Part shown: positions 486-900 of the stretch, piece by piece
How positions within the stretch are numbered: position 1 is the stretch's first letter
Layout: each line of letters starts with the position of its first letter
Source: a virus
Lineage: Duplodnaviria; Caudoviricetes
DNA length: 64,000 nucleotides
Strand: one strand, 5' to 3'
Virus record (IMG/VR): IMGVR_UViG_3300044266_000210
Span: 1 to 64,000 of that record
Notes under the pieces: generated by a model
What the model was told of the DNA's origin: nothing
Databases searched by the model: none
What the model saw: the letters and a program-made list of their open reading frames with translations, nothing else
Made by a program: the position numbers and the translations under genes

Positions 486-493
486 TATTTATA
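486..493 (-). promoter_or_regulatory. T4-type late promoter TATAAATA
   Basis: Exact T4 gp55 consensus 18 nt upstream of the ATG at 467; a gp55-like sigma factor is encoded in the window. Confidence 0.7.
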
Positions 494-900
494 AACGAAC
501 TGCGTTCGTTTGCTTCTTCGGCTAACGCCTTGAAGCATTTATATCGCGAAGCGTTTAAATATTATCCAGATTCAATGGTCACACTTTGCCCGCTAAGGGC
601 AAAGAACATTATCCGAGTTGGCAAGTCACACAGCGTTAGAGCATTACAGTGGCGGTTGTCCTGTACCACGAGCTCCGTCTTTATACAACGGCAGGAGTAT
701 ACAAATACGCTATCATCTGTATATCCGTTAGGGAATTACCCTTCTTTTTGCCTATTCATTCCTATTCAAACAACCAAATCGCAGGGCTTATTAGCGATCT
801 TCATCCTTTCGGGTAGTGGTTGAGCACTCTTAACGGCGAGAGATTTCCATCCCTGTGACCCGAGGTCCAGGTTTAGGGCACAAGAAATTGACCTGTGCGA
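493..900 (-). ncRNA. Putative large structured non-coding RNA, family not recognised
   Basis: Intergenic and more GC-rich than its flanks. More than 10 stems; several contain G-U pairs only on the - strand. Also a cc-GAAA-gg tetraloop (805-812), two possible pseudoknots and repeated boxes. Confidence 0.65.

What the first reader, a model, noticed from the sequence alone, without database searches (positions are those of the whole stretch)
493..900. About 410-nt highly structured, unrecognised RNA abutting the stop codon of a minimal GIY-YIG nuclease
Seen: stems at 878-884/892-898, 852-860/864-871, 827-830/839-842, 730-733/739-742, 698-706/715-723, 675-679/687-691, 639-642/672-675 and 584-591/597-604, plus a three-way junction closed by 771-776/817-822 that holds 776-782/794-800 and a GAAA-capped stem. 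Four stems have G-U pairs on the - strand that would be A-C mismatches on +, so the - strand (same sense as the nuclease) looks like the functional RNA. Loop 831-836 is complementary to 725-730 and loop 707-711 to 632-636, giving two possible pseudoknots. It starts about 5 nt after the nuclease stop. Known: nucleases followed by structured RNAs include TnpB/omega-RNA systems. Inference: a new phage ncRNA, possibly forming an RNP with the 143-aa GIY-YIG protein, which has a Lys-rich arm but no obvious DNA-recognition domain. Caveat: short GIY-YIG genes are common in T4-like phages, so adjacency may be incidental.
Basis: partly seen in the sequence, partly recalled or inferred. Interest (0 to 1): 0.85.

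Follow-up and report, generated by a model that had tools for sequence, protein, structure and literature searches.

The report
Extended Polynucleobacter-1 twin-box phage RNA
The gene-free stretch behind a small nuclease gene of this uncultured T4-like phage encodes a real, doubly knotted non-coding RNA of about 410 bases; its first third is the catalogued but unexplained Polynucleobacter-1 motif, the rest carries one short variable word twice, and its function is still unknown.

Summary
Window 490-903 (minus strand) is a highly structured RNA: 69 pairs are 94.9% paired across 43 relatives, and 47 of them show compensatory changes.

It is not unrecognised. Bases 768-903 match Rfam RF01718 (Polynucleobacter-1) at 121.7 bits against a cut-off of 37. 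The remaining two thirds are not in Rfam. They hold two covariation-proven pseudoknots, a 3' module and three tail hairpins.

The 3' module contains two direct "twin boxes", A-CUC-X (618-608) and A-UCU-X (571-561). The 7-nt X varies between lineages but is always identical within one molecule. Its first position switched at least 28 times, and no mixed state was seen.

The rule also holds in three other RNA body types. One of these sits in Polynucleobacter genomic islands that have no GIY-YIG gene.

In this phage clade the 143-aa SegE-type GIY-YIG gene and the RNA are fixed neighbours downstream of gp46. More distant relatives have a PD-(D/E)XK nuclease, a full-length Seg enzyme, or no nuclease there. 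No residue of the nuclease tracks the most variable box position (box positions 5 and 7 show only weak correlations that I read as clade effects). I found no target for the boxes.

An RNA-guided nuclease is therefore not supported, and the function is unknown. This scan has met the same family before on other DNA.

The parts
906..1337 (-). 143-aa minimal SegE-type GIY-YIG nuclease gene, the fixed upstream neighbour of the RNA
   Evidence: Pfam PF19835 at 3.4e-34 covers residues 2-128. PHROG homing-endonuclease families match. More than 548 relatives are in IMG/VR.
490..903 (-). Whole twin-box RNA, about 410 nt. The 5' end is taken from the Rfam match and the 3' end from the last hairpin.
   Evidence: The nhmmer profile matches 555-901 full length in 168 loci. 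The tail hairpins are conserved in phages and islands. GC is 45.7%, against 35-37% in the neighbouring genes.
768..903 (-). 5' domain, which is Rfam RF01718 Polynucleobacter-1. It has three hairpins (878-898, 853-870, 827-842) and a three-way junction (771-776/817-822 enclosing 805-812 and 777-799).
   Evidence: cmscan gives 121.7 bits over model positions 1-141. Covariation supports it.
694..742 (-). Hairpin 730-742 and the long hairpin 694-726. Loop 708-713 of the long hairpin forms pseudoknot 1.
   Evidence: All 12 pairs of the long hairpin change on both sides. MI supports it.
630..635 (-). 3' strand of pseudoknot 1, which pairs with 708-713
   Evidence: Pairs 710-633, 709-634 and 708-635 are 100% standard pairs with covariation.
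639..689 (-). Core knot. Helix 672-675/639-642 encloses hairpin 665-668/650-653. Strand 685-689 pairs into that hairpin's loop at 655-659 (pseudoknot 2).
   Evidence: The strongest MI values in the RNA are here (675-639 at 1.44; 687-657 UA:80 and CG:50). Helices 11-13.
608..618 (-). Twin box 1: A-CUC-GGAUAAU
   Evidence: Identity covariation with box 2: 614=567 (GG 66, AA 64, none mixed), 610=563, 608=561, 613=566.
584..604 (-). 8-bp hairpin between the boxes, followed by the conserved GUGUGAC
   Evidence: Covariation. It is present in all four body types.
561..571 (-). Twin box 2: A-UCU-GGAUAAU
   Evidence: Box position 1 changed at least 28 times on the tree, always in both boxes.
493..553 (-). 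Tail: a UUCG mini-hairpin (545-553), hairpin A (512-536) and hairpin B (493-511). Hairpin B is terminator-like but lacks a clear U run here.
   Evidence: Fold of -20.5 kcal/mol. The same two terminal hairpins follow island RNAs. The loop motif occurs in 94 of 184 tails. The scan found no canonical terminator.

Best explanation
Shown:
- Window 490-903 (minus strand) is a full-length member of an RNA family whose 5' third is Rfam's orphan Polynucleobacter-1 motif.
- The family is in fact an RNA of about 350-640 nt with multiple pseudoknots. It is carried by mobile elements: T4-like phages and tRNA-linked islands of Polynucleobacter.
- Every body type ends in the same 3' module. This module shows one 7-8-nt word twice, as A-CUC-X and A-UCU-X on either side of a hairpin, and is followed by two conserved hairpins.

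Inferred:
- In this phage the RNA is made as the 3' end of the gp47-gp46-(small ORF)-GIY-YIG transcription unit. No promoter-like site precedes it, and the genes downstream of it are often convergent.
- It works in trans as a stable RNA.
- The two boxes are single-stranded specificity elements, both read by one and the same partner. I think this partner is most likely a nucleic acid, or a two-fold reader that engages both copies. That would explain why the boxes must stay identical while they drift.
- The GIY-YIG protein is a Seg-type (homing-endonuclease-derived) gene that has become fixed next to the RNA. It probably shares the RNA's expression, but it is not guided by it.
For: Family identity: (121.7 bits).

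Structure.

Extension beyond the Rfam model:
- Conservation runs to about 558.
- The nhmmer profile matches full length in 168 loci.
- The tail hairpins are shared with islands.

Twin boxes:
- Identity covariation is 1.00 at four positions.
- Box position 1 switched at least 28 times, always in both boxes.
- The same rule holds in type iii RNAs (ACAUGAA), the L013 type (GGAAAAG) and island RNAs (five different X).

The RNA is autonomous:
- 16 of 141 Polynucleobacter species genomes carry it in islands with no GIY-YIG gene.
- The upstream gene is PD-(D/E)XK (L118, L158, L103), a 397-aa SegE+NUMOD3 enzyme (L135) or an amidoligase (L144).

Not a 5' UTR or an intron: the downstream genes belong to at least 10 families, and many are on the other strand.

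Fixed neighbour in this clade:
- GIY-first sample: every one of the 80 loci with enough downstream sequence to judge has an RNA with the twin-box module. A few (for example L030, L042) are cut off at the contig end and could not be assessed.
- RNA-first sample: 101 of 105.
- gp46-first sample: 70 of 70 loci that could be assessed.

No promoter-like site lies directly upstream of 903.
Against: - No transcript data exist, so the ends, the processing and the stability are all inferred.
- No partner for the boxes was found inside the RNA, within 3 kb, on the 131-kb contig or in a complete host genome. A 7-nt word is too short to search for reliably.
- Pairing to a common RNA partner would tolerate G-U wobble and so should give mixed G/A states. 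None is seen (0 of 130).
- The perfect linkage with a nuclease that lacks a DNA-binding domain, and its replacement by another small nuclease at the same spot, would also fit a functional pair.
Confidence: 0.5

Rival explanations
1. Nuclease-RNA pair. The RNA is a cofactor of the adjacent domain-less nuclease, acting as scaffold, guide or regulator. The twin boxes would give specificity for a duplicated or palindromic DNA site.
For: - Gene and RNA co-occur completely across this clade, although both flanks are hypervariable.
- The RNA starts 3 nt after the stop codon.
- The protein is the catalytic domain only.
- Three contigs have a PD-(D/E)XK nuclease in the same position.
- Islands place a 188-aa catalytic-only tyrosine recombinase next to the RNA.
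Against: - The RNA occurs without GIY-YIG in islands.
- A close GIY-YIG relative in cyanophage S-SCSM1 sits beside nrdB with no room for an RNA.
- The nuclease stays about 80% identical across unalignable RNA bodies.
- No protein column tracks box position 1.
- About 6% of loci have an ORF inserted between gene and RNA.
- L135 has a full-length enzyme with its own NUMOD3 DNA-binding motif.
- The recombinase palindromes do not follow X.
- No target was found in cis or in the genomes searched.
Confidence: 0.12
2. Cis-acting 3' UTR element. The folded RNA protects or tunes the gp47-gp46-GIY-YIG messenger, for example by blocking 3' exonucleases or controlling nuclease expression, and has no role in trans.
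For: - It sits at the 3' end of the unit with no promoter of its own detected.
- The genes downstream are often convergent.
- In four loci the ORF reads on into the RNA.
Against: - About 410 nt with two pseudoknots and sequence-matched boxes is far more than a 3' stabiliser needs.
- In islands the RNA follows a divergent gene, so it must have its own promoter there.
- The upstream gene varies between lineages.
Confidence: 0.12
3. Homing-endonuclease gene parked next to its target. The RNA gene is the conserved cleavage target of Seg-type and PD-(D/E)XK endonucleases, and the box changes are escape from cleavage.
For: - The nuclease belongs to the Seg family, and L135 keeps NUMOD3.
- A second nuclease family occupies the same slot.
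- From my own knowledge: T4 SegB lies in the tRNA gene cluster and cuts tRNA genes of related phages.
Against: - No allele without the endonuclease was found among the 70 gp46-first loci that could be assessed, whereas homing genes are patchy.
- The 143-aa protein lacks the DNA-binding half that Seg enzymes use to find their site.
- No protein column tracks box position 1.
- Escape does not explain why the two boxes must stay identical.
Confidence: 0.1
4. Boxes as codon-like sites. The variable core is a triplet (GGA, AGA, GCA, GAA, ACA, AGU) in a fixed frame, and the RNA binds two copies of one tRNA, as a sponge, sensor or decoy.
For: - The variable part is three bases followed by U-R-A in all phage RNAs and R-A-A in islands.
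- All six phage triplets are cognate to tRNAs on the window's own contig.
Against: - The idea is post hoc: 16 tRNAs cover many codons.
- Box positions 5 and 7 also covary, which a triplet reader does not require.
- No T-box-like platform or acceptor-binding element was recognised, and no Rfam T-box hit was found.
Confidence: 0.05
5. DNA-level element: a replication origin, iterons or a recombination site. The boxes would be direct DNA repeats bound by a protein.
For: - Direct repeats that stay identical are typical of iterons.
- The locus lies beside the recombination genes 46 and 47.
Against: - Covariation includes invariant G-U pairs that exist only in minus-strand RNA.
- There are only two repeats.
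- The constant CUC versus UCU difference argues against a duplication.
- No synteny break or empty site was seen.
Confidence: 0.03

Closest known systems
Polynucleobacter-1 RNA motif (Rfam RF01718; Weinberg et al. 2010, Genome Biol 11:R31, PMC2864571)
   Same: Bases 768-903 match the whole 141-position model at 121.7 bits. The gene context is as described in the paper (downstream of a phage-like gene family). The function is unknown in both.
   Different: The Rfam model covers only a third of the RNA. The pseudoknotted core, the twin boxes and the tail hairpins are not in the model, and the paper's text does not discuss them. The authors found no copy in a sequenced purified phage. Here the RNA lies on a 131-kb T4-like viral contig.
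Seg-type free-standing GIY-YIG homing endonucleases of T-even phages (SegA-G; Pfam PF19835 for the SegE N-terminal domain)
   Same: The catalytic domain family is the same, and the gene lies between conserved phage genes and next to an RNA gene, as SegB does in the T4 tRNA cluster (my own knowledge).
   Different: The protein is 143 aa with no DNA-binding half. It is fixed in every relative sampled rather than patchy, and no cleavage site is known.
OMEGA systems (TnpB and IscB with omega RNA; HEARO RNA)
   Same: A small nuclease gene is directly joined to a large structured RNA on the same strand.
   Different: The nuclease fold differs (GIY-YIG, not RuvC or HNH). There are no transposon ends. 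The variable words are internal and doubled, not a terminal guide. No target is matched, and the RNA also occurs without the nuclease.
Large orphan RNAs of phages and mobile elements (GOLLD, ROOL)
   Same: These are large, intricately folded RNAs of unknown function that are carried by phages and prophages and were found by comparative genomics.
   Different: There is no sequence or model similarity (no Rfam hit). This RNA is smaller, and twin boxes are not described for GOLLD or ROOL.
Phage T4 gene 60 translational bypass (matched take-off and landing codons; the mobA cassette)
   Same: Two matched triplets lie about 47 nt apart with a hairpin after the first, and a stop-like U-R-A follows the triplet in all phage boxes.
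   Different: No open reading frame crosses the region. The spacing varies by non-multiples of three, and island boxes lack the stop-like triplet.
IS110/IS1111 bridge (seek) RNAs
   Same: A structured RNA next to a DNA enzyme, with short variable specificity segments in a conserved scaffold.
   Different: The guides of a bridge RNA are complementary to the target and donor DNA of its own element and differ from each other. Here the two words are identical and match nothing nearby, and there is no DEDD recombinase.

Membership tests
Rfam RF01718 Polynucleobacter-1 | Covariance-model score above the curated gathering score over the full model | tested here: met
   121.7 bits against 37, model positions 1-141 of 141, window 768-903 minus strand.
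Rfam RF01718 Polynucleobacter-1 | The model's helices are kept by compensatory changes among relatives | tested here: met
   Helices 1-8 are 91-100% paired, and most pairs change on both sides. MI agrees.
Rfam RF01718 Polynucleobacter-1 | Lies downstream of the GOS11034 / PSSM2_218-like gene family (Weinberg 2010 supplement) | tested here: inconclusive
   It lies 3 nt downstream of a SegE-type GIY-YIG gene. I could not check that this gene is GOS11034 or PSSM2_218.
RNA-guided nuclease of the OMEGA kind | The guide segment of the RNA matches a DNA target (the flank or an empty site) | tested here: not met
   No complement or extra copy of the boxes was found within 3 kb, on the 131-kb contig or in a complete host genome. 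No empty sites exist in the relatives sampled.
RNA-guided nuclease of the OMEGA kind | Obligate pairing of the nuclease family with the RNA family | tested here: not met
   Island RNAs have no GIY-YIG gene. Other upstream genes occur. The S-SCSM1 homologue has no RNA.
RNA-guided nuclease of the OMEGA kind | RuvC-type or HNH-type effector inside transposon ends | tested here: not met
   The protein is GIY-YIG. Its position downstream of gp46 is fixed.
Group I intron carrying a homing endonuclease gene | Interrupts a host gene whose exons flank it | tested here: not met
   The downstream genes belong to at least 10 unrelated families, many on the opposite strand. The upstream 99-aa ORF is not conserved.
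Group I intron carrying a homing endonuclease gene | Match to the group I intron model | tested here: not met
   No Intron_gpI hit appears even at E up to 10 in 300-1500.
Free-standing Seg-type homing endonuclease | GIY-YIG catalytic domain of the Seg family | tested here: met
   PF19835 at 3.4e-34.
Free-standing Seg-type homing endonuclease | C-terminal DNA-binding region (NUMOD or helix-turn-helix) | tested here: not met
   In the 143-aa protein the catalytic domain spans residues 2-128 and there is no other Pfam hit. A 397-aa relative in L135 does have NUMOD3.
Free-standing Seg-type homing endonuclease | Patchy presence among close relatives | tested here: not met
   All 80 closest gp46 loci have the gene, and 70 of the 70 that could be assessed also have the RNA.
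Type III toxin-antitoxin RNA | Tandem full-length repeats next to an endoribonuclease toxin | tested here: not met
   Only 11-13 nt are repeated, twice. The neighbouring genes encode DNA nuclease folds.
Programmed translational bypass (T4 gene 60 type) | An open reading frame enters the take-off site and resumes after the landing site | tested here: not met
   There is no conserved ORF. The linker length varies freely.

The most novel reading that the evidence does not exclude
The twin-box RNA could be a programmable specificity module for DNA enzymes that lack a DNA-binding domain. Its two identical 7-nt words would pair with the two halves of a duplicated or palindromic DNA site. They would deliver whichever minimal catalytic protein is encoded beside the RNA: GIY-YIG, PD-(D/E)XK, or a catalytic-only tyrosine recombinase. 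That would be a new class of RNA-directed DNA cutting or recombination.
Probability: 0.03. Interest if true: 0.95.

Novelty: new member of a known kind. Interest (0 to 1): 0.55.

Why it matters
Polynucleobacter-1 has been an orphan motif since 2010. This locus and its relatives show three things about it.

- The catalogued 141 nt are only the head of a large RNA with multiple pseudoknots.
- The RNA belongs to mobile elements: a whole clade of uncultured T4-like phages and Polynucleobacter islands.
- Its most constrained feature is unusual. Two copies of a short word drift quickly but never differ from each other.

Covariation by identity of this kind is not explained by ordinary RNA pairing. 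It points to an unknown reader that inspects both copies. It would also settle whether the tightly linked, domain-less nuclease has anything to do with the RNA.

Tried and rejected
- **Group I intron with an endonuclease ORF.** The flanks are not exons and there is no model hit.
- **5' UTR or riboswitch of the downstream gene.** The downstream genes are unrelated and often convergent.
- **Mobile homing cassette with empty sites.** No empty site occurs among the gp46-first loci.
- **Third pairing partner for the boxes.** None was found inside the RNA, in cis within 3 kb, on the 131-kb contig or in complete Polynucleobacter genomes. The extra hits in the A/T-rich genome G027 exceed the reversed-pattern control (about 6 extra hits against 2). 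They lie at scattered, unrelated places, so I read them as chance, but I did not test this.
- **Boxes as guides for the island recombinase.** The palindromes before the 188-aa recombinase do not follow X.
- **Co-evolution of nuclease and boxes.** No protein column tracks box position 1. The weak signals for position 7 follow clades.
- **Target-site duplication.** The constant CUC versus UCU prefix, and the co-divergence of the intervening hairpin with the RNA, argue against it.
- **Triple helix.** This would need mirror repeats, not direct repeats (reasoning only).
- **Kink-turn or C/D-box reading of GAUGA.** Most boxes read GAUAA.
- **tmRNA.** ARAGORN finds none, and the RNA ends do not pair.
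- **Cultured phages.** blastn against 50,697 phage records finds only the nuclease gene, in cyanophage S-SCSM1, and no RNA.
- **A wasted scan.** My first collection scan used a mistyped pattern, one base too long, and returned only chance hits.
- **Local stems around box 1.** A short variable stem closing box 1 into a loop is only weakly supported (3.50 against 3.21 in permutations).

Full report
**What is there.** The window is the first 64 kb of a 131.5-kb IMG/VR viral contig. The minus strand carries these genes in order:
- a gp47-like Mre11 gene (3376-4389)
- a gp46-like Rad50 gene (1598-3379; AAA_23/SMC_N)
- a 99-aa ORF
- a 143-aa ORF (906-1337), which is a SegE-type GIY-YIG catalytic domain and nothing more (PF19835, 3.4e-34, residues 2-128)

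From 903 down to about 490 there is no conserved ORF. GC rises to 45.7% there, against 35-37% in the neighbouring genes.

**The RNA is real, and part of it is known.** cmscan against Rfam 15 gives a single hit above threshold in the whole window. It is RF01718 Polynucleobacter-1 at 768-903 on the minus strand, with 121.7 bits (cut-off 37) over the full model. The only paper in the library that names the motif is Weinberg et al. 2010. Its supplement says the motif occurs in environmental samples and one Polynucleobacter genome. It also says the motif mostly lies downstream of a gene family with possible homology to a cyanophage ORF, and that it was not found in any purified phage. The raw alignment in that supplement already runs several hundred bases past the Rfam model.

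**Relatives.** Back-translated patterns of the GIY-YIG protein found more than 548 relatives in IMG/VR, of which I kept 80 loci. blastn showed the RNA region conserved over window positions of about 905-545 in 68 of them. An RNA-first search used a core pattern and made no use of the protein. It returned more than 120 further viral stretches, plus some contigs binned into freshwater MAGs. A profile built from my alignment matches 205 loci, 168 of them full length.

**Structure.** Mutual information with APC correction on 130 non-redundant sequences recovers thirteen helices, many with 100% standard pairs and several pair types. A formal count on alignment A1 (43 sequences) covered 69 of these pairs; the 730-742 hairpin was left out because A1 is poorly aligned there:

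| Measure | Value |
|---|---|
| Pairs counted | 69 |
| Cells paired | 94.9% |
| Column shuffles | 81.8% (0 of 500 reach the observed value) |
| Partners slid by 1-3 columns | 32-45% |
| Pairs with changes on both sides | 47 |

Two pseudoknots are proven by covariation. One is loop 708-713 with 630-635. The other is 685-689 with 655-659, which lies inside the hairpin 665-668/650-653. Invariant G-U pairs fix the sense as the minus strand.

The single-sequence fold alone is weak evidence (z -2.27 on the minus strand, -0.99 on the plus strand).

**Twin boxes.** Two direct repeats flank the hairpin 584-604. They are A-CUC-GGAUAAU (618-608) and A-UCU-GGAUAAU (571-561). Across the 130 RNAs:
- First box position: G in both boxes 66 times, A in both 64 times, never mixed.
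- Positions 2, 5 and 7 behave the same way, with identity of 0.99-1.00.
- On a tree built without the box columns, the first position changed at least 28 times. That rate is like a covarying helix position.
- The CUC and UCU prefixes are constant.

The rule survives in RNAs that are otherwise unalignable:
- A second phage body type behind equally conserved GIY-YIG genes has X = ACAUGAA (L007, L026, L058, L037; also L419-L425 and L429).
- A third type has GGAAAAG (L013).
- Further phage lineages have AGUUGAA and ACAUAAA.
- Island RNAs of Polynucleobacter have AGCGAAAG, AUCAAAAG, AGAGAAAG, AACAAAAG or GGAGAAAG.

In all phage RNAs, box positions 4-6 read U-R-A.

**Search for a reader of the boxes.**
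- No column of the RNA pairs with the boxes.
- No complement or extra copy sits at a consistent place within 3 kb.
- None exists on the 131-kb contig beyond chance.
- The complete Polynucleobacter genome G040 holds the 12-mers only at the boxes themselves.
- No column of the GIY-YIG protein alignment tracks box position 1.
- The palindromes before the island recombinase do not follow X.

**Relation to the nuclease.** Within this phage clade the linkage is complete:
- GIY-first sampling: every locus with enough downstream sequence to judge has an RNA with the twin-box module. A few are truncated at the contig end.
- RNA-first sampling: 95 loci have the gene ending within 60 nt of the RNA. Six have one ORF inserted between them. 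Four lack the gene.
- gp46-first sampling: all 80 loci have the gene, and all 70 that could be assessed have the RNA.

So there are no empty sites, and the pair is not a patchy homing cassette.

The stretch between gp46 and the nuclease gene varies from 0.5 to 5 kb. The genes after the RNA belong to at least ten unrelated families, many of them convergent. That excludes an intron and a 5' leader.

Outside the clade the link breaks:
- 16 of 141 Polynucleobacter species genomes carry the RNA in tRNA-linked islands. There it lies between a divergent DUF6641 gene and a 188-aa catalytic-only tyrosine recombinase, with no GIY-YIG gene.
- L118, L158 and L103 have a PD-(D/E)XK nuclease (PF24608) in the upstream slot.
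- L135 has a 397-aa SegE enzyme with NUMOD3.
- L144 has an amidoligase.
- A close homologue of the nuclease in cyanophage S-SCSM1 sits beside nrdB with no RNA.

**Reading.** I take the RNA to be an autonomous non-coding RNA of mobile elements. Here it is expressed as the tail of the 47-46-GIY-YIG unit. It acts through two identical exposed words that one partner reads twice. I take the nuclease to be a fixed, Seg-derived neighbour.

The parts that are shown are the family identity, the fold, the box rule and the distribution. A functional nuclease-RNA pair is not excluded. I give it about one chance in eight, and the bolder version, a programmable guide, about 3%.

**Earlier work of this scan.** After I had found the boxes I looked up earlier notes. 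The same family has been reported many times on other genomes, under the name twin-box RNA and with the same open question. The island RNA and the 188-aa recombinase were also noted before. My results agree with those notes.
- the gp46-first test for empty sites
- the count of paired switches
- the replacement of the nuclease by a PD-(D/E)XK enzyme
- the negative tests against the protein alignment, the recombinase palindromes and a complete host genome

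Noticed in passing
L118:3963-4484, L158:8819-9385, L103:1198-1719 (minus): In three contigs the slot directly upstream of the twin-box RNA holds a 173-188-aa PD-(D/E)XK endonuclease (Pfam PF24608) instead of the GIY-YIG gene. 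In L103 an RNase H gene lies between it and the RNA.
   Followed up: partly
L007:3424-3900, L026:3424-3860, L058:3424-3900, L419-L425: Behind GIY-YIG genes about 80% identical to the window's lies a different RNA body of about 400 nt with no RF01718 hit. It keeps the same 3' module (boxes ACUC/AUCU + ACAUGAA) and the same tail hairpins. It looks like a sister family that is not in Rfam.
   Followed up: partly
L135:9338-10531: A 397-aa SegE_GIY-YIG protein with a NUMOD3 motif precedes a divergent twin-box RNA. This suggests that the 143-aa proteins are truncated descendants of full-length Seg-type enzymes.
   Followed up: no
L342:6380-7400 (Polynucleobacter chromosome): Three near-identical copies of a tRNA 3' end lie upstream of the island that carries the RNA. 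This is typical of repeated integrations at one tRNA gene.
   Followed up: no
L345, L342 and L343, about 100-150 nt upstream of the 188-aa recombinase start: Each recombinase lineage has its own perfect palindrome before the gene (arms CATAATCT, ATATAAGAG or ATAAGAA). The palindromes do not follow the box word of the neighbouring RNA.
   Followed up: partly
G000 contig 118768-131139 (outside the window): There is a cluster of 16 tRNA genes, including Gly-UCC, Arg-UCU, Ala-UGC, Glu-UUC, Thr-UGU and Ser-GCU. These are the cognates of all six triplets seen at the start of phage boxes. The match is post hoc.
   Followed up: no
window 813/803 and 814/804: Beside the GAAA hairpin, positions 813 and 803 covary as U/C against C/U (84 to 46). 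One of two adjacent pairs is Watson-Crick in each variant, and the change is coupled to the loop type (GAAA against UUAACA).
   Followed up: no
window 3-467 (minus) and 1309-1608 (minus): The ORF after the RNA runs off the contig end and is Ala/Gly-rich, with no family hit. The 99-aa ORF before the nuclease gene overlaps its start by 29 nt and is conserved in only a few relatives.
   Followed up: partly
L011, L016, L031, L035: In four loci the GIY-YIG ORF lacks its usual stop codon and reads 35-50 codons into the RNA.
   Followed up: no
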